Shown here: positions 7,806-53,198 of the stretch, in pieces | Layout: every line of letters starts with the position of its first letter | Numbering within the stretch: position 1 is the first letter of the stretch | Assembly: GCA_012838425.1 (NCBI GenBank) | Contig: DUPG01000010.1 | Location: 4,194 to 68,193, forward strand | Length of the DNA: 64,000 bases | Origin: Clostridiales bacterium | Lineage (GTDB): Bacteria; Bacillota; Clostridia; Christensenellales; CAG-138 | Direction of reading: 5' to 3' | Notes under the pieces: generated by a model | What the model saw: the letters and a program-made list of their open reading frames with translations, nothing else | Database searches by the model: none | What the model was told of the DNA's origin: nothing | Translations under genes and position numbers: made by a program

Positions 7806-7817
7806 AATTACCTCCTA

Positions 7818-10596: not shown

Positions 10597-11915
10597 TGCT
10601 TTGCCCTCCTTTCAGCTTGTGCAATCTTTTCTTTCATAACCTTAAATGAGGGTGTAAGGTATCGCGACGCGGGGCATACATAAGAACAGCACCCACATAG
10701 TATGCAATCCTTTATGTTGCGCGATATTGCTGCCTTCATGTCGTTTTTATCGCAATCAAATTTAAGCGCGTGTGGCAGTAAGCCCGCAGGACAAACATAA
10801 ACGCAGCGCGCGCAGCGTATGCAGGCGGATTCCTCAGCAAACTTTGCTTCATGCTTGCCCAGCACTACAATTCCTCCGGTTGCTTTGCAAACGACTATAT
10901 CTTCTGTAGGTGCGCAAGGAGAAGTCATGCAGCCGCCTAATAGAATTTTCTTCGGTTCTTCCGAATATCCGTCGCATGCACCTATTAAATCGTAAAATAT
11001 TGAGCCGACTGGTACTAACAGGTTGGACGGACGATTTACCTTGCCAGTTACAGTGGTTACTCTTGAGATTAGAGGCAAGCCCTTACGAATAGCGTCTGAA
11101 ATAGCCTTGCTCGTGGAAGCATTTATTACGATAACTCCAACATCAATAGGCAATCCGCAGCTTGGAACCTCTCTGCCGGTCGCTACTTGTATGAGCTGTT
11201 TTTCGCTTCCTTGCGGATACTTCGTCTTTAGCACTAATACGCTTATATTTTCATAGTTTTTTACAACTTCTTTTATTGCTTGAATCGCTTCGGGCTTATT
11301 GTCCTCAATGCAAATAATTCCTTTGCTTACTTTCAGCGCACGCATTGTCAAGTGCAAGCCATCAACAACTAATTCGGGCTGTTCAAGCATTATTCTATGG
11401 TCGCAAGTAATATGAGTTTCGCACTCAACACCGTTTATAAGTATAGTATCGCAGTTCTTACCATTTGGAACAGTCAGCTTAACATGAGTAGGAAATGCAG
11501 CGCCTCCCATGCCGACAATACCAGCATTCTTAACAGCTTCTACGAATTTCTCAGTATTTTCGATTTCTTCTTCGGTTAAACCATGCAAATCGCTTACCCA
11601 TTCGTTAGCATAGTCGTTTTGTATTTCAACACAAAGTACGGGTTGTGAATCAGCGAATTGATGCTTTTCAACACACAATACTGTACCAGAAACGCTCGCG
11701 TGTATAGGTACTCCCAAAAAGCCTTGCGGTTCTCCTATGAGCTGCCCTTTGAGAACGCGTTGTCCTTTTTCTACACAAGGTGTGCAAGGCGGACCCATGT
11801 GCATTTGCATTGGTATAATTACAGTACCCGGTTCAAATTCTCGTATGGGTTCATTGCGTGTTGCGCGTTTTCCTCCATGCTTGATAGGGTGAATACCACC
11901 TCTGAATGATTTCAA
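10593..11915 (-). CDS. rnfC: Rnf complex subunit C
   Basis: FRGGIHP N-terminus, NADH/FMN-binding GMGGAAFPT, and two CxxCxxCxxxCP clusters. The start is uncertain: TTG 11915 with AGGTG upstream is preferred, but the ORF is open to TTG 11951. Confidence 0.88.
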   Translation of the reverse strand: MKSFRGGIHPIKHGGKRATRNEPIREFEPGTVIIPMQMHMGPPCTPCVEKGQRVLKGQLIGEPQGFLGVPIHASVSGTVLCVEKHQFADSQPVLCVEIQNDYANEWVSDLHGLTEEEIENTEKFVEAVKNAGIVGMGGAAFPTHVKLTVPNGKNCDTILINGVECETHITCDHRIMLEQPELVVDGLHLTMRALKVSKGIICIEDNKPEAIQAIKEVVKNYENISVLVLKTKYPQGSEKQLIQVATGREVPSCGLPIDVGVIVINASTSKAISDAIRKGLPLISRVTTVTGKVNRPSNLLVPVGSIFYDLIGACDGYSEEPKKILLGGCMTSPCAPTEDIVVCKATGGIVVLGKHEAKFAEESACIRCARCVYVCPAGLLPHALKFDCDKNDMKAAISRNIKDCILCGCCSYVCPASRYLTPSFKVMKEKIAQAERRAKQ

Positions 11916-12144
11916 TACATACACCTGCTTTCTACAATAAATTAGAGTCAACTTGTATCATAACATATTTGCAAAAAAAGTTAAAGAAAAAAATCGACAA
12001 CAGATTCGGATATATTATATTAAATCTCTTTCCTGCTTTTGCTTATGAGGTAATATTACTGTAATATGGCAGATTTACCATTCAAGAATTATTGTGTGTT
12101 ATTTGCGTAGTGGCTATTGTCCGTTATGGGAAATTCGATAAAGC

Positions 12145-19642: not shown

Positions 19643-20722
19643 ATGTACCCAAGATTAGTTATTGATTTGCCTAAGCTTGAGAACAACCTGAATTATCTCA
19701 TAAGCCTTTGCCATTCAAAAGGCTTGACTTGCGCCATTGTTACCAAGGTTTTTTGCGCAGATGAAAAAATAGTCGAGCTTATCAATAATTCAAAAGCCGA
19801 TATTATAGCAGATTCGCGCTTAATCAATCTTAGACGCGTAAAAACAGCTAAGCCCAAGTTATTGCTTAGGATTTCCGCATTGAGTGAAATCAACGAGGTG
19901 TTGGAATTTTCCGATATATCGCTTCAAAGCGAAATTGCAACAATCAACAAGTTAGGCGAAGCGGCAGAGGGCAGAGCAAATAAGCATAAGGTCGTTTTAA
20001 TGATAGATTTAGGCGACTTGCGCGAGGGTATATTCTTCGAAAATGAAGAAGGTATCAGAGCAGCCGCGGAAGCAGTCCTAAAATACAAGAATTTAGAGCT
20101 GTACGGAATTGGCACAAATCTAACATGCTATGGCGGAATACTGCCCGACGAGAAAAACCTTTCTGTGCTTGTCGGCATAGCAAAAATGCTGCGTGAGAGG
20201 TACTCAATTGAAATGCCTTTTGTTTCGGGCGGCAACTCCTCAACGCTTGAATTCTTGAAGTCGGGCGGAGTTCCCAAGGGCATTACGAATCTGCGCTTGG
20301 GTGAATCCTTCGTACTGGGTAAAGACACAGCTGTATGTGAAGTTATGGAAGGCATGTACGGCGACGCGATTACATTAGAGGCGGAGCTTGTAGAGATTCA
20401 AACAAAGCCCAGCAAGCCCATTGGCACAACCGGCAGAAATGCTTTCGGCGAGGAAGTGTTCATAGAGGACAAGGGCATAATGCGCAGGGGAATACTTGGC
20501 ATAGGCAGACAAGACACGAATTCTGACGGTTTGGAGTTCGTAAATAATTCCTCTGAAAAATATATTAGCGTTATCGGCGCGTCATCTGACCATTTGTTGG
20601 TTGACTTAACTCATGCAGAATTATACAATGTTGGCGATGTCCTGCGTTTTACTATGGATTATGGTGCAGTCCTCCGCGGCTTCACCAGCGAATATGTAGG
20701 CAGGAAATATAAAATAAGTTAA
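19643..20722 (+). CDS. Alanine/ornithine racemase family PLP enzyme (Orr/YhfX-like)
   Basis: Fold-type III PLP barrel length and layout. AIVTKVF is a candidate PLP-Lys segment. It lacks the AYGHG signature of Alr. Confidence 0.7.
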   Translation: MYPRLVIDLPKLENNLNYLISLCHSKGLTCAIVTKVFCADEKIVELINNSKADIIADSRLINLRRVKTAKPKLLLRISALSEINEVLEFSDISLQSEIATINKLGEAAEGRANKHKVVLMIDLGDLREGIFFENEEGIRAAAEAVLKYKNLELYGIGTNLTCYGGILPDEKNLSVLVGIAKMLRERYSIEMPFVSGGNSSTLEFLKSGGVPKGITNLRLGESFVLGKDTAVCEVMEGMYGDAITLEAELVEIQTKPSKPIGTTGRNAFGEEVFIEDKGIMRRGILGIGRQDTNSDGLEFVNNSSEKYISVIGASSDHLLVDLTHAELYNVGDVLRFTMDYGAVLRGFTSEYVGRKYKIS

Positions 20723-21795: not shown

Positions 21796-22935
21796 ATGAA
21801 AAACGAAATCAAATATAATTCACGCACTTGGGCAGAAATTGATTTTTCTGCATTGAAACACAATCTCACAGTAGCAAGGAATGCGTCTAACCGCCCTGTA
21901 ATGTGTGTTATTAAGGCGAACGCTTACGGTCATGGGGCTGTAGAGTGCGGCAGATACTTGCAAGACAATGGCGCCGCTGCTTTTGCGGTAGCATGTATTG
22001 ATGAAGCTATTGAGCTGCGCGAAAACGGAATACACCTTCCAATACTGATATTGGGCTATACGAGCAGCGAATTCGCGCCTTTGCTCGCTGAATATGACTT
22101 GATTCAAACAGCTGTTGATTTCTCTCACGCAGAGGAGTTGAACTCAGCAGCAGAAAATGCGAATGTGCGCTTGAAAGTCCATGTAAAAATAGATACCGGC
22201 ATGGGCAGAGCAGGCATATTAGCGCAGGGGGAGAAGCATATCCCTTCGGCGATAGACTTGGTATGCAGGATATTCGATATGAGCAATCTTGATGTAGAGG
22301 GTATGTATACTCACATGTCCGTTGCTGATACCGAATCTCAAAATGAATACACAAATTGGCAAATAGCTAACTTTGAAAGCGTAAGAGGCGGCGTTGAAGC
22401 ACGCGGAAAACATATTAAGTACTGTCATGCAAGCAATAGCGCAAGCATATTGAACCATAAGCGTGCGCATTTTGATATGGTGCGCGAAGGTATTATGCTA
22501 TATGGGCTGTATCCCGACAGCTTGCCTGTTGAAAACGGAATTCTGAAGCCTGTTATGACCTTGAAAAGCAGAGTAGGGCAGGTAAAGGAGTTTCCCGAAG
22601 GCTCGTCAGTAAGCTATGGCAGAACATTTGAAAGTCATGAAAGACTGCGCACGGCAGTAATAACAGCAGGCTATGCCGACGGCTACCCTCGCAGGTTGAG
22701 TAACAATGCTTTCGTTGTAATAAATGGCAAAAGTTACAATCAAATAGGCCGCGTTTGTATGGATATGATTATGGCAGATATTAAATACGATGAAGTGAAG
22801 CGCGGCGATGAGGTTATACTGTTCGGTAATGGCGGCATGAGCGTTGAAGCGGTTTCGCAAATCGTTGGAACAATAAACTACGAGATAACCTGCCTTGTTA
22901 CTCAGCGAGCAAAACGGCATTATATAAATGGTTAG
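21796..22935 (+). CDS. alr: Alanine racemase
   Basis: VIKANAYGHG PLP-Lys motif and the C-terminal beta domain with GRVCMD. Confidence 0.93.
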   Translation: MKNEIKYNSRTWAEIDFSALKHNLTVARNASNRPVMCVIKANAYGHGAVECGRYLQDNGAAAFAVACIDEAIELRENGIHLPILILGYTSSEFAPLLAEYDLIQTAVDFSHAEELNSAAENANVRLKVHVKIDTGMGRAGILAQGEKHIPSAIDLVCRIFDMSNLDVEGMYTHMSVADTESQNEYTNWQIANFESVRGGVEARGKHIKYCHASNSASILNHKRAHFDMVREGIMLYGLYPDSLPVENGILKPVMTLKSRVGQVKEFPEGSSVSYGRTFESHERLRTAVITAGYADGYPRRLSNNAFVVINGKSYNQIGRVCMDMIMADIKYDEVKRGDEVILFGNGGMSVEAVSQIVGTINYEITCLVTQRAKRHYING

Positions 22936-22950
22936 CAGAGTATCATAAAG

Positions 22951-22975
22951 GGCGGCTGCGATAGCCGCCTTTTTA
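22951..22975. terminator. Bidirectional terminator between alr and spoIVB
   Basis: GGCGGCT-GCGAT-AGCCGCC hairpin flanked by AAA/TTTTT. It abuts the spoIVB stop. Confidence 0.7.
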
Positions 22976-24253
22976 TCCCATCAGTTCCGCCATCCAGTAT
23001 GCGTACATACAGTAGCCCCTCTCGGGGTCATTTATCATAACGTGAGTAACCACACCTATAATTTTGCCGTTCTGAATTATAGGGCTGCCGCTCATGCCCT
23101 GCACAATTCCGCCTGTTTTCTCCAACAGTCGCGAATCGGTAATCTCAATAACAAAACCTTTTGATTCCGCTTTGCTTTGTGAAAACAGCTTAGTAACCTT
23201 GCATTCGTATTCGCCTATTGCAGAATCGTCAAGCGTGGTGAGTATAGTCGCCTTGCCTACACGCACTTCATTAGGAAAAGCCACAGGCAAGGGCTTGTCG
23301 TAAGCGGAGAGACTGTCGAAGTCTGTATCACTGTAAAGCGTACCATATACTCCAAACTCGCAGTTAGTTCTTATAGAACCAAAGCGCGTAGAGCTTGAAC
23401 CAAAGGTTCCTAATAGCTCGCCGGCTTCACCAACTTCGCCTTTTATTATGTCAACTATCTCACATTCGGTAATCTCGCCGCTTTTTACATCAAAAACTGT
23501 GCTCGTGTCAATATCCATAATGGCATGTCCGAGCGCCGCGTAGCTCAAGGTGTTTGGGTCAAAAAATGAAATAGTTCCTATGCCTGCTGTGCTGTCGCGC
23601 ACCCACATTCCAAGCTTGTATTGCTCTTCGCGCGGGTCGTATGCGGCTTTAAGGCTGATTTTTACTGTGCTCTTGTTTCTTTGTATTGTTAGCGTAACTT
23701 GTCCATTCGAAGCATTGCATATATTGACCAAGTTGTCTGTGTTGTAAATTTCAGTACCGTTTGCTTCTATTATTACATCGCCTGCTGTTATTCCGGCACC
23801 AGCTGCAGGAGAGGGTATGCTCTTGATTGTACCGTCGCTCAAGGTAGTTGTAATATCGCTTGTGCCAACTACTAATATTCCTTTAGAATGCAGCGCAATT
23901 CCAATACTTTGTCCGCAGGGAATTAGGTAATGGTTGCTTTTCGTGTAAAAGAAAACTGTTTTTACAGGAATTATTCCGAACAGCTCAACCGTTGCTGTGG
24001 TTCTATGTCGGTTCAGCGATTCGTCTATGCTTCCTGAAACCGTTTGCGTATCGTTGTTAAGCTTGTAGTAAAATGGGGCGGGAAGCGAGGAAAAGAAGTC
24101 GGCTTTTTGCGTATCAGAATCAAGATAGACAACATTCGGGATACTGCTTAGCACCTGCATAGCAGGCGAGAAGTTGAAAAGCACCATGAATAAGCACAGT
24201 ACTATTCCTATAGCTTTGATAATTGAGCTTTTTTGCCAATTGAATCTTCTCAT
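22973..24253 (-). CDS. spoIVB: SpoIVB peptidase (S55)
   Basis: N-terminal helix, a PDZ region, GIGTISFFDP...YAALGHAI and GMSGSPI serine-protease motifs. ATG 24253 has an AGGGG SD. Lies downstream of recN as in other Firmicutes. Confidence 0.87.
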   Translation of the reverse strand: MRRFNWQKSSIIKAIGIVLCLFMVLFNFSPAMQVLSSIPNVVYLDSDTQKADFFSSLPAPFYYKLNNDTQTVSGSIDESLNRHRTTATVELFGIIPVKTVFFYTKSNHYLIPCGQSIGIALHSKGILVVGTSDITTTLSDGTIKSIPSPAAGAGITAGDVIIEANGTEIYNTDNLVNICNASNGQVTLTIQRNKSTVKISLKAAYDPREEQYKLGMWVRDSTAGIGTISFFDPNTLSYAALGHAIMDIDTSTVFDVKSGEITECEIVDIIKGEVGEAGELLGTFGSSSTRFGSIRTNCEFGVYGTLYSDTDFDSLSAYDKPLPVAFPNEVRVGKATILTTLDDSAIGEYECKVTKLFSQSKAESKGFVIEITDSRLLEKTGGIVQGMSGSPIIQNGKIIGVVTHVMINDPERGYCMYAYWMAELMG

Positions 24254-24365
24254 AAACACCCCTAATAGCAGCATAACACAAAAGTAATGGTGTTATTATT
24301 ACCATAGTACAGGCTTGAATATTCTATTGCTAATGATAATAAAATAGTATATTGTCAAGAATTGA

Positions 24366-27410: not shown

Positions 27411-27523
27411 ACCGACATATATTCAAGGATTGAAAATAAGCAAATAATATGTTAAAATGCTTTAATGAAATATTTGCTAGTTTTCATAAACGCAGCAAGC
27501 TAATATACATTTTAGGAGGAATT

Positions 27524-28711
27524 ATGATTAAAGATGTTGTTCTTGTTGGTGCAGTTAGAACTGCTATCGGCTCATTCGGCGGAATGTTGAAGAATACACC
27601 TGTTACTGAGCTCGGCGCTATTGTTATTAAAGAAGCTTTGAAGCGTGCAAATGTACCTGCAGAGGCTGTTGACGAAGTCATTATGGGTTGCGTTTTACAG
27701 GCAGGCTTGGGGCAGAATGTTGCGCGTCAGGCAGCAATAAAGGCGGGAATTCCTGATTCTGTTCCTGCTATGACATTGAACAATGTTTGCGGCTCTGGCC
27801 TAAAAGCCATAAATTTAGCTGCTTCTATGATACAAGCCGGCGAAGCTGATGTTATAGTCGCAGGCGGTATGGAGAATATGAGCGCGACGCCGTATCTTAT
27901 TCCCAATGCGCGTTACGGCTATCGTATGAGCATGCCTACTGCTTCAATAGTAGATTCAATGGTTAATGACGGGCTTTGGGACGCGTTCAATAACTATCAT
28001 ATGGGAATTACAGCAGAGAATGTAGCTGAAAAATACGGCATAACACGCGAAGAACAAGACGAATTCGCTTTATCAAGCCAGTTGAAGTGCCAAAAGGCTC
28101 AAAACGAAGGCAAGTTTGACGATGAGATAGTACCTGTTCTTGTAAAAGAGAAGAAGGAAGTTATAGAGTTCAAGAAGGATGAGCATCCCCGTCCTAATGC
28201 AACGATCGAAGGCTTGAAGAAGCTATCCCCTGCGTTCAAGCCTGATGGCACTGTTACTGCTGGCTCGGCATCAGGCATAAATGACGGCGCAGCTGCAATA
28301 GTGGTAATGAGCGCAGAAAAAGCGAATGAGCTTGGAGTTACCCCCATGGCGAAAATAGTTGCGTACGCTTCGGCAGGCGTTGACCCGAAAATCATGGGCA
28401 TTGGTCCGGTCGAAAGCACGAAGAAGGCATTGAAGCTTGCAGGCATGGCAATTTCAGACATAGATTTAGTAGAAGCCAACGAAGCGTTCGCGGCACAGGC
28501 TTTGGCTGTTGCGCGTGAATTGAAGCTTGACCCTGAAAAGGTTAATGTAAACGGCGGCGCAATCGCGTTAGGACATCCGATAGGCGCGTCCGGTTGCCGC
28601 ATACTCGTTACTCTGCTGCACGAGCTCAAGCGCAGCGGTAAGAAAATCGGCTTGGCTACATTGTGCGTAGGCGGAGGCATGGGCGTTTCGACAATCGTAG
28701 AAAGTATGTAA
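27524..28711 (+). CDS. Acetyl-CoA C-acetyltransferase (thiolase II)
   Basis: Active-site [15 protein letters not shown] and GHPIGASG motifs, with CVGGGMG at the C-terminus. ATG 27524 follows AGGAGG. The ORF-track N-extension was rejected. Confidence 0.95.
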
Positions 28712-32461: not shown

Positions 32462-33208
32462 TTATTTCGGCATATGGCGTATTTTCATATAGTAAAGTGT
32501 GCCATTGTCCGCTTTTGTCAGCTTGGTAAAACCTAAGCCCTGCATATAGTCAATACTAACATTTGACGAAGGTATGGCTTGTATATGCAGCCTTTCGCCT
32601 TCAAGCTCCACTATGCCTTCAAGGTATTTTATATTACGCCATTGCATAATACGCCACCTTGAATTCGGGTAAATGGCTGAGAAGGGGTTATATACATTTC
32701 TTTGGCGTGGCTTGCTTGTGCTCGTGTATGTAGTGTTAGGCTTTATAGGTGTTTGCTCTCCGAATATCTCTTTTGCTTGCTCTAATATCTCTTTCAATGC
32801 TTCGGAGGGCTGCCTATTTGGGTTTTTGCGTATTTGACTTGGCGGATACACAGCTTGTGTTTGCTGTGGGGCAGGGATACTGATTCTAACATGTGTGCTT
32901 TTTTCATACTCTATCTGTCGCTTGAAGGGCATTAAGCTGTTATTGTTTCCGCGCAAAGCACCTTCCATAATCACTCTGCCGTTCTGAAACACTATAATAC
33001 CTACAATTTTGCTTATATCAATATTCTTTTCTTCTAATAACTGTGATGTTGATAACAGTTTATCCTTATATGCAACATACACTTCCGAGTTTTCGGGTTC
33101 ACCCTTTGTTGATATGATGATATTTGTGCCATCATATCGCAAGCGCGCGAATCCTCTATACCTTCCGTGTAGGTTTACTATTACCTCAAAAGCCTGCATA
33201 CTTTTCAC
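32462..33208 (-). CDS. Hypothetical protein (no recognisable motif)
   Basis: 248-aa ORF with normal composition and a central Pro/Gln-rich linker. Divergent from the spo0A-like gene. Confidence 0.5.
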   Translation of the reverse strand: MKSMQAFEVIVNLHGRYRGFARLRYDGTNIIISTKGEPENSEVYVAYKDKLLSTSQLLEEKNIDISKIVGIIVFQNGRVIMEGALRGNNNSLMPFKRQIEYEKSTHVRISIPAPQQTQAVYPPSQIRKNPNRQPSEALKEILEQAKEIFGEQTPIKPNTTYTSTSKPRQRNVYNPFSAIYPNSRWRIMQWRNIKYLEGIVELEGERLHIQAIPSSNVSIDYMQGLGFTKLTKADNGTLYYMKIRHMPK

Positions 33209-33260: not shown

Positions 33261-33267
33261 TTCGACA
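33261..33267. promoter_or_regulatory. Exact 0A-box heptamer (TTCGACA, the complement of TGTCGAA) upstream of the spo0A-like gene
   Basis: Perfect match to the Spo0A binding heptamer, 47 nt upstream of ATG 33314. A single 7-mer match could be chance. Confidence 0.35.
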
Positions 33268-33313
33268 ATTTGTCCTCTTGAAACAACAATGCAGCAAAGG
33301 ATATGCTATACAT

Positions 33314-34096
33314 ATGAAGAACACAAATGTTATTAAACTACAAGTTATAGATGAACGCCCCTATACATATGCGCGCCTTTGCGAAGCCGCTTCGGCTTTC
33401 AAGCAAGTGTCTATGCTGCCATATATTGCAGACCTCGATTTGCTGACAGCCGAAAGTGTGGCGCAGGCGGATTGCATATTGGCTAATGTCGCAAGCTCGT
33501 CAAACAATATCAGAGCATTGCATAATCTATATTCAAGCAATGAAGTTACTGCAAAGCTGTATATATTGGGCGACGCGTTTTCGATTGATGAAGCTTCAAT
33601 CGTATTAGAGCGGTACTTGGAATATGCCTTTGCCGAACCTATACCGGGAGATATTGTGATAAAGCGCATATATGAGTTTATGACGACTAAGCCCGAGTAC
33701 AATCCGCATGAGGAGGACTCTTTGAGCTTTTATAACAGCTATTTTAAGCAAATGGAGCTGTGCGCCGGCGTATTGCTTCGCGAATTAGGAATCGCAATGC
33801 ACCTGCAAGGCTTCAACTACCTGCGGTTTGCGGTTACTTACTTCACTTTTTCACCGCGGGCAACGCTTAAATGGGATGTGTTTCCGAAAATGGAGCGCAT
33901 ATTTCATACTTCCCGCGTTAATATTGACCGTTCAATGCGCTATGCCATAGAAACTGCTTGGAATAATGGCGACTTCGAAGCTCAACAGGCACATTTCGGC
34001 TACACAATAGATGAGCAAAAGGGCAAACCTGAGGTTCGCGAATTCATATCTATGTTAGGGCAGCATATGCGCACAAAAATGCTGAAATTAGCATAG
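33314..34096 (+). CDS. Spo0A-like regulator: Spo0A_C DNA-binding domain with a degenerate (pseudo)receiver domain
   Basis: The C-terminus LGIAMHLQGFNYLRFAV...SRVNIDRSMRYAIETAWNNG...FGYT...KPEVREFISML aligns with the B. subtilis Spo0A effector domain. The N-terminus is receiver-like but substituted at key residues. The ORF is open from TTG 33278, and ATG 33314 has only a weak SD. Confidence 0.75.
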   Translation: MKNTNVIKLQVIDERPYTYARLCEAASAFKQVSMLPYIADLDLLTAESVAQADCILANVASSSNNIRALHNLYSSNEVTAKLYILGDAFSIDEASIVLERYLEYAFAEPIPGDIVIKRIYEFMTTKPEYNPHEEDSLSFYNSYFKQMELCAGVLLRELGIAMHLQGFNYLRFAVTYFTFSPRATLKWDVFPKMERIFHTSRVNIDRSMRYAIETAWNNGDFEAQQAHFGYTIDEQKGKPEVREFISMLGQHMRTKMLKLA

Positions 34097-34118: not shown

Positions 34119-34733
34119 ATGCGCAGAGCAAGATTAGATGAATCACTCATATATCAAAGCATAGTCAGGCGTAAAAGGGTTAGGCTTATCAATGACACAT
34201 ACAAGATTAGCACTTTCAGTATTTTCTTTGTTGCTTTTTTGCTGTTAGTTGGTATAATATCCGGGATTGCTACATTGAACTTATTAGGTGAAACGACAAA
34301 ATCATATTATATCGCATCGGTGGGCAAAGCAATATTAGTTTCATCGGCGTTTAATATTTTAATGCTTGCAGTATCGATTATGTGCGCTATTTGGATATTC
34401 GGAATTCTGCCCCTGATAGCTGCCATACTATTAAAAGGCTTCATATTAAGCTTTTCTGCCTGCGCTCTAATTATGGCGAAGTATGGCTTTTTAGGCTTTG
34501 CAATAAGCATAGTAATTCCTAATATGGTGCTGTTATATGCGCATTTCACGCTTATACTGATTTCTTTAAGCGAATGGTCAAATAGATTCAAAAACTTCTT
34601 TCAAAATAGAGCACAGACAAAAAGTATCAACACCCAGTATTTTCAAGCGATTCGGCCGTGCTTGATTGCGCTTGTACTGGGAATAATTATTGAGGGCATA
34701 ATAGCGCCGCTTCTCATGCGTGCAATTCAGTGA
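34119..34733 (+). CDS. spoIIM: SpoIIM-like stage II sporulation membrane protein
   Basis: About 200 aa with 5 helices. LKGFILSF and IVIPNMVLLYAHF resemble SpoIIM's LKGIVVGF and VLPQNLLLIPAYL. Confidence 0.55.
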   Translation: MRRARLDESLIYQSIVRRKRVRLINDTYKISTFSIFFVAFLLLVGIISGIATLNLLGETTKSYYIASVGKAILVSSAFNILMLAVSIMCAIWIFGILPLIAAILLKGFILSFSACALIMAKYGFLGFAISIVIPNMVLLYAHFTLILISLSEWSNRFKNFFQNRAQTKSINTQYFQAIRPCLIALVLGIIIEGIIAPLLMRAIQ

Positions 34734-34765: not shown

Positions 34766-35911
34766 ATGAAAAGACGAGTCGTGTTATTTGTCCTCGATAG
34801 CGTTGGCATTGGCGCTTTGCCTGACGCTCATTTGTTTTCTGATACCGGTGCGCACACCTTGGGAAATATCTACAAGCTATGCGGCAGGCTTGATTTGCCT
34901 AATATGTATTCTATGGGGCTGTCTGAAATAGAGGATTCGCGGCTTCCTAAGTATCATGGAAATATTGTCGGCGCATTCGGTCGAGCGGCTGAAAAGAGCA
35001 GCGGCAAGGATACAATTTCAGGACATTGGGAGCTTATGGGCGTTATCTCTGAAAACAGATTCGAAACATATACCGAAAATGGATTTCCGTCTGAACTGAT
35101 TGAGGATTTCGAGAAGCGCATTGGCACGAAAACGCTTGGCAACTATGCGGCTTCGGGTACGGAGATTATAAAGCAGCTTGGTGCAGAGCATCAAAAAACC
35201 GGTTATCCGATAGTTTATACTTCCGCAGACAGTGTGTTTCAGATAGCTGCGCATGAAGATATAATTTCATTGCAAAGACTTTATATGATGTGTGAAATTG
35301 CGCGTGAAATCATTGATGACGGTGGCTATAACATAGCAAGAGTTATAGCGCGTCCCTTTATTGGCGATCCAATAGTTGGATATACGCGCACGCCGAATAG
35401 AAAGGACTTTTCAGTAGAGCCTCCAAGCACAACGATATTAGACAGGCTTCAGCATATGGGGTTTGAAACAGTTGGCATAGGCAAGATCCATGATATATTT
35501 GCAGGCAAGGGAATATCCATTGCAGAGCATACGAAAAGCAATGCCGAGGGTATAGACGCTACAATACGCTACTTAAAATCTGGCGAAGGCGATTTTATAT
35601 TCACAAACCTTGTTGATTTCGATATGCTTTTCGGGCATCGCAACGATTATGAGGGATACAGAAAGGCGTTAGAGTACTTCGACAGCAGGCTGCCTGAAGT
35701 TATTTCCTCTATGACTGAGCATGATTTACTTATAATCACTGCTGATCATGGCTGCGACCCGACATTCACAGGTACAGACCATACGCGAGAGTACATTCCA
35801 ATACTTGTTTTCAATAAGCGTATGACCAATGCGATGCCTTTGGGTACTGTTGACAGCTTCATTCATATTGGCGGCTTGGCATATACATACCTGTCTTCGC
35901 TTGCGGAATAA
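34766..35911 (+). CDS. deoB: Phosphopentomutase
   Basis: N-terminal VLDSVGIGALPDA and the metal-binding ADHGCDPT motif. Confidence 0.93.
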   Translation: MKRRVVLFVLDSVGIGALPDAHLFSDTGAHTLGNIYKLCGRLDLPNMYSMGLSEIEDSRLPKYHGNIVGAFGRAAEKSSGKDTISGHWELMGVISENRFETYTENGFPSELIEDFEKRIGTKTLGNYAASGTEIIKQLGAEHQKTGYPIVYTSADSVFQIAAHEDIISLQRLYMMCEIAREIIDDGGYNIARVIARPFIGDPIVGYTRTPNRKDFSVEPPSTTILDRLQHMGFETVGIGKIHDIFAGKGISIAEHTKSNAEGIDATIRYLKSGEGDFIFTNLVDFDMLFGHRNDYEGYRKALEYFDSRLPEVISSMTEHDLLIITADHGCDPTFTGTDHTREYIPILVFNKRMTNAMPLGTVDSFIHIGGLAYTYLSSLAE

Positions 35912-35939: not shown

Positions 35940-36992
35940 ATGTTACATAGACTTAATAAAAAGCGCATAGTTATCATAATATTAGCATTGTCCTTGACCG
36001 TAATAATCGTTAGGGGAATATTCTTTGCGTTTTTACCTCTACCGCAGTTCTTAGAAAACCTTTCGGGTGAAAAGATGAAGCCTAAGGACATTTTATTCGA
36101 TGAAGTAGCCTTTATCAGCGTTTTTGATGTGAAAACCAACAGAGTGTTTGAGGTTGGGCTTGAAGAATATGTATTCTGCGCAACCGCAGCAGAAATGCCT
36201 GCTTCATATGAGCTGGAAGCTATAAAAGCGCAGGCGTTAGCAGCAAGAACATATGCGTTTACCCATATGCGCGAGCTATACGCAGATTCCACACCTTGCA
36301 AGAAGGGTTTATCCGATGTTTGCACCGATAGCGGCTGTTGCCAATCCTATAAAAGCATTGAAAGCCTATTTGAGAAGTGGGGGAGCAACGCAAGCAGGTA
36401 TGCCAAGAAGGTATATGAAGCAGTAAAAGTTACAAAAGGTGAGATAGTATCGTATCAAGGAGAGCCAATTCTGGCGCTTTTTCACGCATCATCAGGAGGG
36501 GTTACGGAAAACAGCGAGAATGTGTTTTCATCAGCACTGCCGTACTTGGTCAGCGTTGACAGCCCGAATGAAGAATTCCACACGCATTTTGCTGATACCA
36601 AAGTGTTAAGCGCTGAATATGTGGTAGAAGCAATAAATACAAGCTTTCTCGAAGCAAACTTGCGCAAAGCAGAGCTAAGCAAACAGATAAAAGTGTTAGA
36701 ACGCTACATCTCAGGAAGAGTAAAAACCGTTCAGATAGGCAACAGCACTTGCACAGGCAGAGATTTGAGGAATACGCTGGGGCTTAATAGCGCCAACTTT
36801 TCTATTGAGTTTGATAGCGACAAGGTTATTATATCAACAATAGGCTTTGGGCATGGAGTTGGAATGAGTCAAGCGGGCGCAAATGCTATGGCGCAGGCTG
36901 GCAGTAACTACATACAGATATTGACGCATTACTATCAAAGCACAGAGGTAACCTCTATATACCCAAAGTACGATTCTATTAGCCCGCCATAA
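35940..36992 (+). CDS. spoIID: Stage II sporulation protein D (lytic transglycosylase)
   Basis: N-terminal helix and SpoIID/LytB signature motifs (EAIKAQALAARTYA, HASSGGVTE, GHGVGMSQ). The track start at 35829 overlaps deoB by 83 nt, so ATG 35940 was chosen. Confidence 0.85.
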   Translation: MLHRLNKKRIVIIILALSLTVIIVRGIFFAFLPLPQFLENLSGEKMKPKDILFDEVAFISVFDVKTNRVFEVGLEEYVFCATAAEMPASYELEAIKAQALAARTYAFTHMRELYADSTPCKKGLSDVCTDSGCCQSYKSIESLFEKWGSNASRYAKKVYEAVKVTKGEIVSYQGEPILALFHASSGGVTENSENVFSSALPYLVSVDSPNEEFHTHFADTKVLSAEYVVEAINTSFLEANLRKAELSKQIKVLERYISGRVKTVQIGNSTCTGRDLRNTLGLNSANFSIEFDSDKVIISTIGFGHGVGMSQAGANAMAQAGSNYIQILTHYYQSTEVTSIYPKYDSISPP

Positions 36993-39066: not shown

Positions 39067-39762
39067 TCAATTATCGTAAAAGTATGGTCTTAGCTTATTA
39101 AGCGCACGCTTTTCAATGCGCGAAACATAAGAGCGCGACACACCCAAAAGCGCGGCGACCTCACGCTGAGGTAAGGGATTTTCGCCATCAAGATTATATC
39201 GCGTTGTCAGCACCATTCTTTCAACATCAGTCAGTACTGATTTTTGCACATTTCTGAGTTTCTCGTTAAGCATTGCGCGGTTTAGCTCTTCCTGAAAGTC
39301 GGGCTGCTCGGACACAAACCTGTCGGCAATAGTTATTTCGTTCCCGTCGTTATCACGCCCTATGGGTTCCTCTATCGAGCGCACATATACGCTGGAATGC
39401 CTTGCATTTCTTCGCATTTCCATTAGAATTTCGTTCTCAATACATCTTGCCGCATATGCTGCCAAAGTGCCTTTTTCGGGCTTGTAGGTTGATACCGCCT
39501 TAATCAAGCCGATTATTCCCACAGAAATCAAATCATCAGATTCAACCGCCGCCGAATTATTAGTAAACTTTTTTGCAATATGTGCAACCAAGCGCAAATT
39601 ATGCTCTATCAGCTTTTGCCTTGCATTTTCATCGCCTTCGAGGTGCAGGGCGATATACCTTGCTTCATCTTCTTTTGAGAGCTGTTCTGGGAATGATGTG
39701 CTTGTGTTTACATAAGCCGCAAAAAACAATATGTCTTTTACAAACTGAATGAATGAAATCAT
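39067..39762 (-). CDS. sigK: Sporulation sigma factor SigK (uninterrupted, with short pro-sequence)
   Basis: YVNTSTSFPEQLS, IEHNLRLVAHIAKKF, AAYAARCIENEILM and SRSYVSRIEKRAL closely follow B. subtilis SigK rather than SigE. Confidence 0.85.
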   Translation of the reverse strand: MISFIQFVKDILFFAAYVNTSTSFPEQLSKEDEARYIALHLEGDENARQKLIEHNLRLVAHIAKKFTNNSAAVESDDLISVGIIGLIKAVSTYKPEKGTLAAYAARCIENEILMEMRRNARHSSVYVRSIEEPIGRDNDGNEITIADRFVSEQPDFQEELNRAMLNEKLRNVQKSVLTDVERMVLTTRYNLDGENPLPQREVAALLGVSRSYVSRIEKRALNKLRPYFYDN

Positions 39763-50752: not shown

Positions 50753-52192
50753 TCAATCGGTTTCGCTGAGTATGAACGCTAAAATCTCTTCACCTTGCAG
50801 GAGCAAGCGGCTTATGTTCTTTGCTTCCATAGGGCAGTCAGAATCAATGGGCGCTTCATACAAGCCATAGTCCATATTATCGGCTATTAACTCAAGTCCA
50901 TTCTCGCTGTTGCCCGTAATGCCTTTCTCAAAAAACGCCTTTAGCCCGGCAACTCTGTAATGCTTCTTAGCATATATAGTCGCGCCGTTGTAATGGGTAG
51001 CAATTACCGAAAAAGCCTTCTTTGTGTTCAGATACTTGACAAGCGCGCGAACAATCTGCGCCCCTTCCTCGGGGTTAGTGCCTTTTGCGAACTCGTCAAA
51101 CAGCATTAAGGAATGTGCATCTATGTGTTTCAGTTCGTGCTTCAGCTTTAGAATCTCTCCGCCGAATGAGGATAGACCGCTCGTTATGTTTTCATAGTCC
51201 TGCGCAATTAAGCAGATATGCTCTATCATTGGCAGCTTTGCGCTTTCGGCGAACACGAAGAACCCCGACATAGCAAGCGCAGCATTGAGCGCAAGAGTCT
51301 TAATAGCCATGCTCTTTCCGCCCATGTTCGCGCCCGTTATCACGGTTGAACCGGGAAGCAACTCGATAGATACAGGAATAAAGCAGCGCTTTTTCTCCCT
51401 CAAAATGCTGTCGTAATACGGGTTCTGCATAGCTGTAAACGCAACTGCTTCATCGGTTGTGATTTCTGGCTTAGTAGCCTTGTGCAGCAGGGCAAGCTTT
51501 GCTTTTTGAATAATTAGGTCAAGCCTGCCTATTGAGCTTATCGCTTGCAATATGTCGTCTTTATGAGCGGCTAACTTCTCTGAGAGGTATTTGCGAATGC
51601 TATACTCTTCCTCACACTCTGCTTCTACAATCTTCTGTCTTTCGATTTTTAGCTGTTCTATCTCTTGCTCATCGTTGGCGTTGTGTAGTTTCACTTCGAT
51701 TTCGTGCTTCATCCTGCGAATGCTGCTAAGCTCTAATGAAAACGTGTCGCTTATGTGAAAGCTTGCCGCTTCGGATTTATCGGGATTTATCAGATACAAT
51801 GCGTCTATGCAGGACGGGATTTCTAAGCCAATCAAATGCGCATTCAGCCGTTCGACTGACGCGACTATATGCTGCAGTAATAGCAGGAAACGCTTGATTT
51901 CAAACAGCGCCACGCTATCCAACACAACATCGGGGCATGATTCTATACTGCGCTTAATATCGCGAACCTGCGAAAAGTAATTCTCAATGCTTGCTATATC
52001 ATTTGGTTGAGTTTTCAGCAGGTCAATAACAACCGAAATATTATCAAGCTCTTGCTTTAATTCTTCGGCTTGCTTGCTTTTATAGGGTTTTAGCGTTCTA
52101 ACAAGCGCACGACCATATGGTGTGCGGCATGACAGCAAATTCTTTATATATTCAAGCCCTATAGCCACGCTTTCTCTGTGGTTAAAAAACAT
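50753..52192 (-). CDS. MutS-domain-V-type ATPase without mismatch-binding or Smr domains
   Basis: Walker A GANMGGKSMAIKTL, Walker B LMLFDEFAKGTNPEEG, and a helical N-terminal half. ATG 52192 has AGGAGGG 5 nt upstream. Confidence 0.7.
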   Translation of the reverse strand: MFFNHRESVAIGLEYIKNLLSCRTPYGRALVRTLKPYKSKQAEELKQELDNISVVIDLLKTQPNDIASIENYFSQVRDIKRSIESCPDVVLDSVALFEIKRFLLLLQHIVASVERLNAHLIGLEIPSCIDALYLINPDKSEAASFHISDTFSLELSSIRRMKHEIEVKLHNANDEQEIEQLKIERQKIVEAECEEEYSIRKYLSEKLAAHKDDILQAISSIGRLDLIIQKAKLALLHKATKPEITTDEAVAFTAMQNPYYDSILREKKRCFIPVSIELLPGSTVITGANMGGKSMAIKTLALNAALAMSGFFVFAESAKLPMIEHICLIAQDYENITSGLSSFGGEILKLKHELKHIDAHSLMLFDEFAKGTNPEEGAQIVRALVKYLNTKKAFSVIATHYNGATIYAKKHYRVAGLKAFFEKGITGNSENGLELIADNMDYGLYEAPIDSDCPMEAKNISRLLLQGEEILAFILSETD

Positions 52193-53198
52193 ATCTTCCC
52201 TCCTGAACATCGAATATAGGAACACGCATGGGTTTTATCAGCTTCGCAAGCTCATCAATGAATTTGTGCTTATCAAACGACGCTCCGCTTGCAGAGTAGG
52301 GGTTTACGGTTATTGCGATGAGCTCCATTTCGTGCTTGGGCTGAAGCATGCAGTCAAGCGAACACAGCTTCTCAAAATAACTCTTTGATAGCAGAAATTT
52401 GCTCGCGTCAAAGCCTATAATGCCGATGTTTCTAATACCGCTTTCAATAATAGGTTTAACGACAGTATCGGTGATTGCTCCGTTAATGCAAACAGCTTTT
52501 ATGCTTTTTCTATGCTTTGATTTAGAAATGAATCCGCTGTACTCAACAGGCGAATCAGTTTCATATGTGTTGTTATCGTCTAAAAATACAACAAACTTGC
52601 TGTCTGATTGATACGCTATTTCCTGCTTAAACTGCTCTAATTGCTTTATAGTTAATAACTGTGCAGTATAGTGAGTTTCGGTTATAACCTTGTGCATTGA
52701 GCTGTCAAGCGAAGCGCCGCTGCACAGTATTACTTCCTTGCATAGTGTAGGCACAGAAAAGGATTTGCGGTTAATAGCACCGTCAATCAGCACCAGTTCA
52801 GCGCCTAAATTCAGTATTTGCTCGCATACCGACTGCAAGCCATCAACGGTAGATGGACCGGCTATTTGCACAAAGCCGCAGCTCAATGCCCGTATAATTA
52901 TGACCTCTCCCAAAGGCGTCAATATGCCTGTTGTGTCAAGAATCTCTTGTGTAATATCGCATGAGTTAAGCAGATCCTTGGCTGTGGCAATAATTGCTCC
53001 TGCGCTTACATAGATTTCGGGCTTTTTTGTGCCTGTTACTAAATCAATGCTTTCACCGTCGCGACCGATTGAGGTTATTCCAAGCGTTTTTTGCTGATTT
53101 TCTTTAATAATAGCATTAAGCACAGTGGTTTTGCCTGCGTTCTTTGACATTCCGATTATAGCAACGGAGCTTGATTTAATTGTGTCGGAAATCTTCAT
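52182..53198 (-). CDS. P-loop NTPase-like protein, unknown function
   Basis: N-terminal IIGMSKNAGKTTVLNAI (GxxxxGKT). 338 aa. Overlaps the MutS-like gene by 11 nt. No SD; see the leaderless promoter. Confidence 0.55.
   Translation of the reverse strand: MKISDTIKSSSVAIIGMSKNAGKTTVLNAIIKENQQKTLGITSIGRDGESIDLVTGTKKPEIYVSAGAIIATAKDLLNSCDITQEILDTTGILTPLGEVIIIRALSCGFVQIAGPSTVDGLQSVCEQILNLGAELVLIDGAINRKSFSVPTLCKEVILCSGASLDSSMHKVITETHYTAQLLTIKQLEQFKQEIAYQSDSKFVVFLDDNNTYETDSPVEYSGFISKSKHRKSIKAVCINGAITDTVVKPIIESGIRNIGIIGFDASKFLLSKSYFEKLCSLDCMLQPKHEMELIAITVNPYSASGASFDKHKFIDELAKLIKPMRVPIFDVQEGRYVF

What the first reader, a model, noticed from the sequence alone, without database searches (positions are those of the whole stretch)
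33261..34096. Spo0A paralogue with an intact DNA-binding domain but a non-phosphorylatable pseudo-receiver
The C-terminal 110 aa align closely with the Spo0A effector domain (AMHLQGFNYLRFAV..., SRVNIDRSMRYAIETAWNNG, FGYT...KPEVREFISML). The N-terminal half aligns by eye, at a constant offset, with the Spo0A receiver domain. Its key positions are changed:
- acidic pair DD becomes DE
- the residue aligned to the phospho-acceptor Asp (B. subtilis D56, LVLDIIMP) is Asn (CILANVAS)
- the conserved Thr (MLTAF) is Gly (ILGDAF)
- the conserved Lys (ILKPF) is Glu (FAEPI)

The gene is not in the nearly universal spoIVB-spo0A arrangement: alr lies downstream of spoIVB here. Instead it sits directly upstream of a spoIIM-like gene. 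An exact 0A box (TTCGACA, 33261-33267) lies in its own upstream region, which suggests (auto)regulation by a Spo0A-type protein.

If this is the only Spo0A in the genome, entry into sporulation would be phosphorelay-independent. If it is a second copy, it may compete for, or modulate binding at, 0A boxes.
Basis: partly seen in the sequence, partly recalled or inferred. Interest (0 to 1): 0.65.

Follow-up and report, generated by a model that had tools for sequence, protein, structure and literature searches.

The report
Spo0A orthologue with a dead receiver
This gene encodes the master sporulation regulator Spo0A in a form that keeps its DNA-binding domain and a receiver-shaped N-terminal domain but has lost the residues needed for phosphorylation. 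It sits in the normal spo0A slot, so it is probably this bacterium's own spo0A and not an extra copy.

Summary
ORF 33314-34096 (+, 260 aa) has a genuine but divergent Spo0A_C domain (Pfam 79.5 bits; 30% identity to B. subtilis). Its N-terminal half gives no Response_reg hit. It still aligns collinearly with Spo0A receivers and is modelled as a (βα)5 receiver fold.

Three alignments agree on the key positions: Asn58 at the phospho-acceptor, Asp13-Glu14 at the acidic pair, Gly86/Asp87 at the Thr, and Glu108 at the Lys.

The "paralogue" label is probably wrong. In related genomes the order is recN-spoIVB-spo0A-spoIIM-deoB. Here the gene directly precedes a divergent spoIIM-like gene and deoB. spoIVB lies about 9 kb away on the other strand, with alr where spo0A would normally follow it.

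Other uncultured Clostridia carry spo0A in the fully canonical slot with Ser, Cys, Gly or Glu at the acceptor, so this is one end of a continuum.

Both domains are under purifying selection. spoIVB, spoIID and a sigK-like gene in the window are intact.

The upstream TTCGACA heptamer is real but no more frequent than chance.

I could not check whether a second, canonical spo0A exists elsewhere in the genome.

The parts
33314..34096 (+). CDS of the Spo0A-type protein (260 aa plus stop)
   Evidence: ORF list and sequence. The identical protein is called on at least 23 metagenome contigs with the same neighbours. Orthologue P0002 is 78% identical and the same length.
33314..33688 (+). Pseudo-receiver domain (residues 1-125), a (βα)5 fold. 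Active-site positions are D13-E14, N58, G86/D87 and E108.
   Evidence: No Response_reg hit. hhalign against Spo0A receivers beats 150/150 shuffles. AF2 places β1 7-12, β3 54-58, β4 81-86 and β5 102-107. Foldseek hits receiver domains. pN 0.186 against pS 0.83 versus L001.
33485..33487 (+). Codon AAT = Asn58, at the column of the phospho-acceptor Asp (B. subtilis D56), at the C-terminal end of β3
   Evidence: MAFFT, hhalign, hmmalign census, AF2 secondary structure.
33689..33754 (+). Inter-domain linker (residues 126-147), predicted disordered at 127-139
   Evidence: AF2 pLDDT is below 50 for residues 127-139. Amino-acid identity to P0002 is lowest here, 0.64.
33755..34093 (+). Spo0A_C effector (DNA-binding) domain, residues 148-260, of a divergent 'ERSMRYAIE' subtype
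   Evidence: Pfam PF08769 79.5 bits. PDB 1fc3/1lq1 by sequence and by fold: TM 0.83-0.89, rmsd 1.5-2.0 Å. Residue mapping.
33261..33267 (+). TTCGACA heptamer (reverse complement of the 0A-box core TGTCGAA), 47 bp upstream of the ATG. It overlaps the first hexamer of a weak sigma-70-like match.
   Evidence: Exact match: 5 in the window against 6.3 expected. Conserved in L001, absent in L005 and L010. Promoter-like match TCGACA-17-AACAAT, 9/12.
34119..34733 (+). 204-aa membrane protein in the spoIIM position, probably a divergent SpoIIM
   Evidence: No Pfam or NCBIfam hit. hhalign against same-position proteins, including Pfam-verified SpoIIM of L008 and L018: probability 89%, E 2e-6. Conserved downstream of the gene in L001, L005-L007 and L010.
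34766..35911 (+). deoB (phosphopentomutase), the conserved third gene of the spo0A-spoIIM-deoB block
   Evidence: NF003766 510.8 bits. Same position in L008, L018, L021 and L026.
35940..36992 (+). spoIID (350 aa from the start chosen by gene callers; the mechanical ORF starts at 35829)
   Evidence: TIGR02870 330.8 bits against cut-off 234.75. Gene calls. pN/pS at most 0.19 versus L001.
32462..33208 (-). Conserved divergently transcribed neighbour of unknown function ('X248')
   Evidence: No family or PDB hit. Homologues sit in the same divergent position in L001, L005-L007 and L010-L012 only.
22973..24274 (-). spoIVB, preceded by nadK-argR-recN, with alr (21796-22935, +) where spo0A would normally follow
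   Evidence: TIGR02860 402.4 bits against cut-off 305.25, and neighbour identities. tblastn with B. subtilis Spo0A finds no other Spo0A in the 64 kb.
39067..39762 (-). sigK-like sporulation sigma factor (context: the late sporulation programme is retained)
   Evidence: NF004471 253.2 bits (cut-off 252); TIGR02846 251.6 bits (cut-off 298.65).

Best explanation
This is the lineage's own spo0A, its positional orthologue. The receiver domain has evolved into a pseudo-receiver.

**Shown:**
- The protein keeps the two-domain Spo0A architecture: a receiver fold, a flexible linker and a Spo0A_C helix-turn-helix domain.
- The aspartyl-phosphate pocket is dismantled: acceptor Asp to Asn, Thr to Gly/Asp, Lys to Glu, second acidic residue to Glu.
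- The gene stayed with spoIIM-deoB when a local rearrangement separated that block from recN-spoIVB.
- Both domains are under purifying selection.

**Inferred:**
- The protein cannot be switched by a histidine kinase or phosphorelay.
- It acts as a phosphorylation-independent Spo0A-type transcription factor.
- The conserved pseudo-receiver probably provides dimerisation, or a non-phosphoryl regulatory interface for a protein partner or ligand.
- Activity would then be set by expression level or by such a partner.
- Because spoIVB, spoIID, a sigK-like gene and a spoIIM-like gene are intact nearby, the most likely process controlled is still entry into sporulation.
For: **Domains.**
- Spo0A_C hit.
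- Receiver-likeness from hhalign with shuffles.
- Collinear full-length phmmer alignments to Spo0A proteins, e.g. P0029 query 9-252 and P0084 query 7-252.
- AF2 model and Foldseek matches.

**Active-site substitutions.**

**Slot.**
- L008 reads spoIVB, Spo0A (Response_reg + Spo0A_C), SpoIIM (PF01944), deoB.
- L018, L021, L023, L024 and L026 read argR-recN-spoIVB-spo0A-(SpoIIM-like)-deoB.
- The window, L001, L005-L007 and L010 keep spo0A*, SpoIIM-like, deoB.
- The spoIVB-adjacent site here is taken by alr.

**Continuum.** Spo0A genes in the canonical slot carry only a Spo0A_C hit and have Ser or Cys at the acceptor.

**Tree.** With the search motifs masked, the window clade has 80% bootstrap and nests among positional spo0A genes.

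**Selection.** N-domain pN 0.186, C-domain pN 0.071, with pS about 0.8 and saturated. This is comparable to DeoB, Lon and SpoIID.

**Population.** The identical protein appears on at least 23 contigs from JGI, ENA and Logan samples.

**Background.**
- D10, D11, D56, I58 and K108 are required for C. difficile Spo0A dimerisation and sporulation (bioRxiv 10.1101/2022.02.07.479450).
- The isolated DNA-binding domain binds targets without phosphorylation (PMC3485338).
Against: - Only 64 kb of the genome is visible, so a second, canonical spo0A elsewhere cannot be excluded.
- All sources are metagenomes or MAGs, so no sporulation phenotype is known.
- The DNA-binding domain is very divergent: 30% identity and TIGR02875 at 76 of 200 bits. 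Positions such as R211N, H218Y, K171Q and E178F are changed. Binding to classical 0A boxes is therefore unproven.
- The AF2 alignment contained canonical Spo0A sequences, which favours a receiver fold.
- The hhalign signal is modest (P about 1e-3).
- SpoIIM-like identity rests on profile-profile comparison of membrane proteins.
- The tree is neighbour-joining on 94 columns, and I did not assess support for the deeper nodes.
Confidence: 0.55

Rival explanations
1. It is the same gene, the spo0A orthologue with a pseudo-receiver, but the lineage no longer sporulates. Alternatively, the regulator has been repurposed as a phosphorylation-independent global regulator of stationary-phase or metabolic genes.
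For: - Related degenerate forms occur in Christensenellales-like MAGs (L018 Ca. Allochristensenella, L022 Ca. Pullichristensenella). From my own knowledge, cultured relatives of that group are described as non-spore-forming.
- SpoIIM has also diverged beyond Pfam detection.
- The DNA-binding domain has subfamily-specific changes.
Against: - SpoIVB (402 bits against 305) and SpoIID (331 against 235) pass equivalog cut-offs, and a sigK-like gene is present.
- SpoIID and the SpoIIM-like gene are under purifying selection between two species-level lineages.
Confidence: 0.2
2. The gene is a second, paralogous Spo0A-like protein that coexists with a canonical phosphorylatable Spo0A encoded elsewhere. 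It competes for or modulates 0A boxes.
For: - Many architecturally odd Spo0A_C proteins exist: stand-alone domains and tandem arrays.
- One clade member (P0016) sits in a different context, next to spoIIID and the S10 operon.
- The rest of the genome was not visible.
Against: - The gene occupies the spo0A slot before spoIIM-deoB.
- The spoIVB-adjacent site is empty.
- Spo0A genes in the fully canonical slot show the same degeneration.
- From my own knowledge, spo0A is normally single-copy.
Confidence: 0.17
3. It is a decaying, non-functional remnant of spo0A (a pseudogene in the making), or an assembly artefact.
For: There is no Response_reg hit, and the score against the Spo0A equivalog model is low.
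Against: - The 260-aa frame is intact in both species.
- pN is far below pS in both domains.
- The identical protein appears on at least 23 independent contigs.
- A confident two-domain model was obtained.
Confidence: 0.03

Closest known systems
Spo0A (B. subtilis BSU24220, C. difficile CD1214; NCBIfam TIGR02875; Pfam Response_reg + Spo0A_C)
   Same: - Two-domain layout and length (about 260 aa).
- Spo0A_C fold: TM 0.83-0.89 to 1lq1/1fc3.
- Invariant arginines at the positions of R214 and R217, plus the FGYT...GKP motif.
- Position immediately upstream of spoIIM-deoB.
   Different: - No detectable Response_reg signature.
- Acceptor Asp to Asn, Thr to Gly/Asp, Lys to Glu, D11 to Glu.
- 76 bits against the 200-bit equivalog cut-off.
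- The C-domain is only 30% identical, with an 'ERSMRYAIE' recognition helix in place of 'ERAIRHAIE'.
- Not adjacent to spoIVB.
Aspartate-less / pseudo-receiver response regulators (ALR domains, PMC4395418; pseudo-receivers, PMC12632262; examples ChxR, HP1043/HsrA, GlnR, BldM/WhiI)
   Same: A receiver fold is retained, the phospho-acceptor is missing, and the domain is fused to a DNA-binding output. Activity is expected to be phosphorylation-independent.
   Different: - The output domain is Spo0A_C. Spo0A does not occur in PMC12632262, and PMC4395418 mentions it only as a canonical example.
- Three of the five pocket residues are changed non-conservatively and a fourth conservatively (Asp to Glu). 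That goes beyond the single Asp-to-Glu change that PMC4395418 reports as the most frequent ALR substitution.
Spo0A genes of uncultured Clostridia in the canonical recN-spoIVB-spo0A-spoIIM-deoB slot with degenerate receivers
   Same: - The same 'MRYA' recognition-helix subtype.
- Weak or absent Response_reg score.
- Acceptor Ser, Cys or Gly in several loci.
- The same downstream SpoIIM-like and deoB genes.
   Different: - Those genes are still next to spoIVB, and some retain the Thr and Lys (DHSTK pattern).
- The window protein is more degenerate.
- It is detached from spoIVB and has acquired the conserved divergent neighbour X248.
B. subtilis Spo0A sad/sob-type mutants and the isolated Spo0A C-domain
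   Same: Functional analogy only: Spo0A activity without phosphorylation. The isolated DNA-binding domain binds its targets (PMC3485338).
   Different: Those are laboratory alleles or truncations. Here a full-length natural protein keeps a conserved N-domain, which suggests that the domain has a retained role.

Membership tests
Spo0A (TIGR02875 equivalog) | C-terminal Spo0A_C DNA-binding/trans-activation domain | tested here: met
   PF08769 79.5 bits, E 2e-22. PDB 1fc3/1lq1 by sequence and by fold.
Spo0A (TIGR02875 equivalog) | N-terminal phosphorylatable receiver with D10, D11, D56, T86 and K108 | tested here: not met
   No Response_reg hit at E<=1. The aligned residues are D, E, N, G/D and E.
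Spo0A (TIGR02875 equivalog) | Whole-protein score at or above the curated cut-off (200 bits) | tested here: not met
   76.0 bits, aligned over residues 101-256 only.
Spo0A (TIGR02875 equivalog) | Conserved genomic position: downstream of spoIVB | tested here: not met
   On spoIVB's strand (-), the spo0A site is taken by alr, encoded on the + strand. The gene lies about 9 kb from spoIVB on the opposite strand.
Spo0A (TIGR02875 equivalog) | Conserved genomic position: immediately upstream of spoIIM-deoB (as in L008 and L018) | tested here: met
   Searches give the reference arrangement. Searches cover the window (deoB 510.8 bits; SpoIIM-like by hhalign at 89% probability).
Spo0A (TIGR02875 equivalog) | Binds 0A boxes (TGTCGAA) and is required for sporulation | not testable with these tools
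   Two invariant recognition-helix arginines are kept, but R211N, H218Y and other positions are changed. This needs EMSA or DAP-seq, and genetics.
Spo0A (TIGR02875 equivalog) | Single copy: the only Spo0A_C transcription factor of the genome | not testable with these tools
   Only 64 kb is available, with no other Spo0A in it.
Pseudo-receiver / aspartate-less receiver response regulators | Receiver (βα)5 fold | tested here: met
   AF2 pLDDT about 80-90 with five β-α units. Foldseek hits FixJ, NarL, RcsB, ETR1, CpaE and Spo0A-N. hhalign exceeds all shuffles. Caveat: the AF2 alignment contains canonical Spo0A sequences.
Pseudo-receiver / aspartate-less receiver response regulators | Phospho-acceptor Asp absent | tested here: met
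   Asn58 falls in that column in every alignment and at the end of β3 in the model. The same holds in orthologue P0002.
Pseudo-receiver / aspartate-less receiver response regulators | Activity independent of phosphorylation | not testable with these tools
   Inferred from loss of Asp, Thr and Lys. This needs phosphotransfer and activity assays.
SpoIIM (PF01944), for the downstream gene 34119-34733 | Match to the family model | tested here: not met
   No Pfam or NCBIfam hit for the window protein or its orthologues.
SpoIIM (PF01944), for the downstream gene 34119-34733 | Homology to verified SpoIIM, and the same genomic position | tested here: met
   hhalign against an alignment that includes Pfam-positive SpoIIM of L008 and L018: probability 89%, E 2e-6 over 152 columns. 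Caveat: membrane-protein composition can inflate such scores.

The most novel reading that the evidence does not exclude
In this lineage, and in several other uncultured Clostridia whose canonical-slot spo0A carries Ser, Cys, Gly, Asn or Glu at the acceptor, the only Spo0A cannot be phosphorylated. The decision to sporulate would then be taken without any histidine kinase or phosphorelay. It would be controlled by Spo0A abundance, or by a non-phosphoryl input to the conserved pseudo-receiver. One candidate for that input is the co-conserved divergent neighbour X248.
Probability: 0.3. Interest if true: 0.8.

Novelty: new variant of a known kind. Interest (0 to 1): 0.6.

Why it matters
Spo0A~P is treated as the universal trigger of endospore formation. 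[quoted passage not shown]

Natural spo0A orthologues that keep a conserved receiver fold but lack the aspartyl-phosphate pocket would have two implications, provided their genomes also keep spoIVB, spoIID, sigK-like and spoIIM-like genes:
- The initiation switch could be rewired in evolution.
- They would offer a natural system for asking what the Spo0A receiver does apart from accepting phosphate.

There is also a practical point. MAG-based predictions of sporulation capacity that count "Spo0A present" by the equivalog model or by Response_reg + Spo0A_C would miss these genes. The NCBI record for P0002 calls it a hypothetical protein.

Tried and rejected
- **AF2 from the single sequence.** The model was useless (pLDDT 38, all-helical), so I discarded it and repeated with a 74-sequence alignment.
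- **Sequence searches for a receiver.** Pfam (E<=1), PDB phmmer (E<=10) and phmmer with the B. subtilis receiver (E<=10) all found nothing. Only profile-profile comparison and structure prediction show receiver-likeness.
- **Direct family assignment of the downstream gene as SpoIIM.** Pfam and NCBIfam gave nothing, including for its orthologues. I accepted it only through hhalign and position.
- **The 0A box as evidence of autoregulation.**
  - The heptamer is at chance frequency.
  - It is conserved only in an 88%-identical spacer.
  - It is absent upstream of the more distant orthologues.
  - I did not pursue a sigma-H-like reading of the spacer, because the AGGA element is not conserved in L001.
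- **Function of X248.** Pfam, NCBIfam and PDB sequence searches gave only noise.
- **A claim that Asn is conserved at the acceptor across the whole degenerate clade.** I considered this (a 'LINAD/LINSD' motif in P0013, P0014 and P0016). I dropped it because MAFFT aligns that motif with β4 and not β3.
- **Literature.** Four searches found no paper describing an aspartate-less or pseudo-receiver Spo0A.
- **Metagenome scan.** It added almost nothing beyond the loci already known.
- **Second spo0A in the same genome.** I could not test this.
Full report
**1. What is at the coordinates**

The finding covers a 105-bp spacer and one ORF. The ORF runs 33314-34096 on the + strand and is 260 aa from the ATG. 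A mechanical TTG start lies at 33278. Its only close relatives are P0001 (99% identical) and P0002 (78%). Both are 260 aa and start at the same Met. The identical protein is encoded on at least 23 contigs from JGI, ENA and Logan metagenomes, always with the same neighbours. It is therefore a stable gene of a real, uncultured organism.

**2. C-terminal half**

- Pfam finds a single domain, Spo0A_C, over residues 154-251 (79.5 bits, E 2e-22).
- The only solved structures matched by sequence are the Spo0A C-domains 1fc3 and 1lq1 (E about 1e-16).
- In the predicted structure this half superposes on them with TM 0.83-0.89 and rmsd 1.5-2.0 Å.

The domain is divergent, however:

- It is 30% identical to B. 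subtilis.
- The NCBIfam Spo0A equivalog model gives 76 bits against a cut-off of 200.
- Two recognition-helix arginines (positions of B. subtilis R214 and R217) and the FGYT...GKP motif are kept. E213 becomes Asp.
- R211N, H218Y, K171Q, E178F and T248E/N249V/S250R are changed.
- Several of these changes are shared with a small set of proteins carrying 'ERSMRYAIE' and 'GFxYLxF' motifs.

"Intact" DNA-binding domain is thus only partly justified. Recognition of the classical 0A box is unproven.

**3. N-terminal half**

Sequence searches see no receiver. This holds for Pfam at E<=1, PDB at E<=10, and phmmer with the B. subtilis receiver at E<=10. Four other lines of evidence say it is a receiver homologue.

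- (a) Against 1.84 billion representatives, several full-length Spo0A proteins align collinearly almost from the first residues. Examples are P0029 (query 9-252), P0084 (7-252) and P0099 (6-250).
- (b) The TIGR02875 alignment starts at residue 101 against model position 100, that is, in β5 at the same offset.
- (c) hhalign of the N-half (window plus P0002) against 40 canonical Spo0A receivers gives a collinear 121-column global alignment.
  - Global: score 19.8, P 8.6e-4; 150 column shuffles gave mean 4.2, sd 2.8, maximum 15.6.
  - Local: score 21.3, against a shuffle maximum of 17.7.
- (d) AlphaFold2 with a 74-sequence alignment gives mean pLDDT 82.
  - The N-domain scores about 80-90.
  - It has β1 7-12, α1 16-27, β2 32-34, β3 54-58, α3 63-74, β4 81-86, α4 88-97, β5 102-107 and α5 112-124.
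  - A disordered linker at 127-139 follows.
  - Foldseek matches full-length response regulators (FixJ, NarL, RcsB), isolated receivers (ETR1, GacS D1, RR468), the CpaE N-domain, and Spo0A-N 1qmp at TM 0.71.

The caveat is that the AF2 alignment contains canonical Spo0A sequences, which favours this fold. The single-sequence run was uninformative.

**4. Active-site residues**

MAFFT with 13 sequences, MAFFT with 21, hhalign and hmmalign agree on these placements.

| Window residue | B. subtilis position | Role |
|---|---|---|
| D13-E14 | D10-D11 | acidic pair |
| N58 (AAT, 33485-33487) | D56 | phospho-acceptor |
| G86 or D87 | T86 | conserved Thr |
| E108 (GAA, 33635-33637) | K108 | conserved Lys |

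In the model these positions fall at the C-terminal ends of β1, β3, β4 and β5, which is where the pocket lies. P0002 has the same residues. In C. difficile, D10, D11, D56, I58 and K108 are each needed for Spo0A dimerisation and sporulation (bioRxiv 10.1101/2022.02.07.479450). The pseudo-receiver call is confirmed.

**5. The gene is maintained**

Between the window and L001, synonymous sites are saturated (pS about 0.8). pN is 0.186 in the N-domain and 0.071 in the C-domain. The whole-gene pN/pS of 0.17 is an upper bound on ω. It resembles DeoB (0.135), Lon (0.115), SpoIID (0.19) and the SpoIIM-like gene (0.22). The pseudo-receiver is therefore functional, not decaying.

**6. Context, and why "paralogue" is probably wrong**

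In the window, nadK-argR-recN-spoIVB lie on the minus strand (27410 down to 22973). alr follows on the other strand only 37 bp from spoIVB, and there is no spo0A there. tblastn finds no other Spo0A in the 64 kb.

The gene is followed by three genes:
- a 204-aa membrane protein (34119-34733)
- deoB
- spoIID

In a related metagenomic locus with a canonical Spo0A (L008), the order is spoIVB, Spo0A (Response_reg + Spo0A_C), SpoIIM (PF01944), deoB. GTDB genomes L018, L021, L023, L024 and L026 show argR-recN-spoIVB-spo0A-(SpoIIM-position gene)-deoB. L018's downstream gene is a Pfam-verified SpoIIM at 52 bits.

The window's 204-aa protein has no family hit. Its family nevertheless aligns with the SpoIIM-position family at hhalign probability 89%, E 2e-6, over 152 columns.

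The window gene therefore sits in the spo0A slot of a conserved spo0A-spoIIM-deoB block. A breakpoint between spoIVB and spo0A explains the rest. The more distant clade members P0013 and P0157 have the same spo0A*, SpoIIM-like, deoB arrangement.

**7. A continuum of receiver loss**

Spo0A genes in the fully canonical slot also lack the acceptor Asp in other uncultured Clostridia.

| Locus | Acceptor residue |
|---|---|
| L021 / L023 / L024 | Ser |
| L026 | Cys |
| L022 | Ser |
| L020 | Gly |
| L017 / L031 | Glu |
| L018, L025, L028, L008 | Asp (kept) |

Pfam sees only Spo0A_C in L021, L024 and L026, and a sub-threshold Response_reg in L018 and L022.

This set is biased toward relatives of the query. 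The acceptor column held D in 124, E in 20, S in 6, N in 5, G in 2, C, H and R in one each, and a gap in 21.

A neighbour-joining tree of the C-domain was built with the two motifs used for retrieval masked. It groups the window with P0002, P0006, P0013, P0014, P0016, P0157 and L014 at 80% bootstrap. It nests that clade among the canonical-slot genes. The tree uses 94 columns, and I did not assess support for the deeper nodes.

The window protein is the most degenerate form that still has a full-length receiver fold.

**8. The 0A box**

TTCGACA is present at 33261-33267, 47 bp before the ATG. The window has 5 copies against 6.3 expected, and 75 of 100 shuffles had at least 5. The heptamer is conserved in L001, but that whole spacer is 88% identical. 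It is absent upstream of the P0013 and P0157 orthologues and of the canonical-slot genes examined. It overlaps a weak sigma-70-like match. Autoregulation is possible but not evidenced.

**9. How it most likely works**

Shown:
- A Spo0A-type helix-turn-helix domain is tethered by a flexible linker to a conserved receiver fold.
- The phosphorylation pocket is dismantled.
- The gene is in the spo0A slot.
- Both domains are under purifying selection.
- The neighbouring sporulation genes are intact: SpoIVB 402 bits against 305, SpoIID 331 against 235, and a sigK-like gene at 253 against 252.

Inferred:
- The protein cannot be switched by phosphotransfer.
- It acts as a phosphorylation-independent Spo0A.
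- The pseudo-receiver supplies dimerisation or a non-phosphoryl regulatory interface, as in other aspartate-less regulators (PMC4395418).
- Control is exerted through abundance or through a partner.

A candidate partner is the divergently transcribed gene X248 (32462-33208, -). It has no known family. It accompanies only the strongly degenerate clade (window, L001, L005-L007, L010-L012).

**10. Rivals**

- (i) The same gene in a lineage that no longer sporulates, or that has repurposed the regulator.
- (ii) A true paralogue alongside an unseen canonical spo0A.
- (iii) A decaying remnant. This one is essentially excluded.

**11. Novelty**

Pseudo-receiver response regulators are well known. Four full-text searches found no description of a Spo0A with a pseudo-receiver. 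The 2025 review of bacterial pseudo-receivers (PMC12632262) does not mention Spo0A. NCBI annotates P0002 as a hypothetical protein.

I rate this a new variant of a known kind, with interest 0.6. The molecular description is solid. Its biological weight depends on whether it is the sole Spo0A of a spore-former.

Noticed in passing
window 32462-33208 (-); L001 5371-6153; L005 3533-4189; L010 2693-3382: A conserved protein of unknown function ('X248', 215-260 aa, no Pfam, NCBIfam or PDB hit) is transcribed divergently from the pseudo-receiver spo0A. It appears only in the strongly degenerate clade. It is absent within ±10 kb of canonical-slot spo0A genes. It could be a functional partner.
   Followed up: partly
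proteins P0004, P0005, P0009, P0010, P0011: Some proteins consist of 3-4 tandem Spo0A_C domains with no receiver (e.g. P0004, 394 aa, three repeats). In total, 21 of 153 sequences in the set had 2-4 Spo0A_C domains. I did not examine this architecture further.
   Followed up: no
L030 9983-10459 and L032 9905-10372 (Peptacetobacter genomes): A 155-158-aa protein with only a Spo0A_C domain lies directly after recN, with no spoIVB and no receiver. NCBI names it 'Spo0A C-terminal domain-containing protein' (P0162). This is a different way of losing the receiver at the same chromosomal site.
   Followed up: no
proteins P0197, P0179, P0084, P0024, P0182, P0077 and others: Twenty Spo0A-like representatives have Glu in place of Asp at the acceptor. 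Most of them have strong receiver scores (patterns such as DDESK and DNESK). This suggests a separate, milder class of aspartate-less Spo0A.
   Followed up: partly
L021 6609-7235, L026 10367-10990, window 34119-34733: Where the Spo0A receiver has degenerated, the SpoIIM-position gene has also diverged beyond Pfam detection. L008 and L018 keep a recognisable SpoIIM. This may be co-divergence of the two adjacent genes.
   Followed up: partly
window 35829-35911: The mechanical spoIID ORF (387 aa) overlaps the end of deoB by 83 bp. Gene callers on identical contigs start SpoIID later (350 aa, about 35940), so the overlap is probably not real.
   Followed up: partly
protein P0003 (187 aa, ENA): A called protein fuses the last ~34 residues of the Spo0A-like protein to a frameshifted version of the downstream membrane protein. 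This is probably an assembly or frameshift error in one metagenome.
   Followed up: no
window 19643-20722, 50753-53198, 6993-11951, 27449-28711: The window encodes ornithine racemase, lysine 5,6-aminomutase reactivase KamB/KamC, RnfB plus adjacent genes I did not scan (presumably the rest of the Rnf cluster), and a thiolase. This suggests an amino-acid-fermenting anaerobe, consistent with the anaerobic-digester source of the closest MAG.
   Followed up: no
L003 2799-3888: Clade member P0016 is not in the spoIIM-deoB context. It is divergent from spoIIID and upstream of the S10 ribosomal operon, so at least one member of the degenerate clade has moved or is a paralogue.
   Followed up: no
L017 9557-11391: In a Hadza-gut Oscillospiraceae MAG, a Spo0A-like gene with Glu at the acceptor is followed directly by a second gene with a receiver-domain match.
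   Followed up: no
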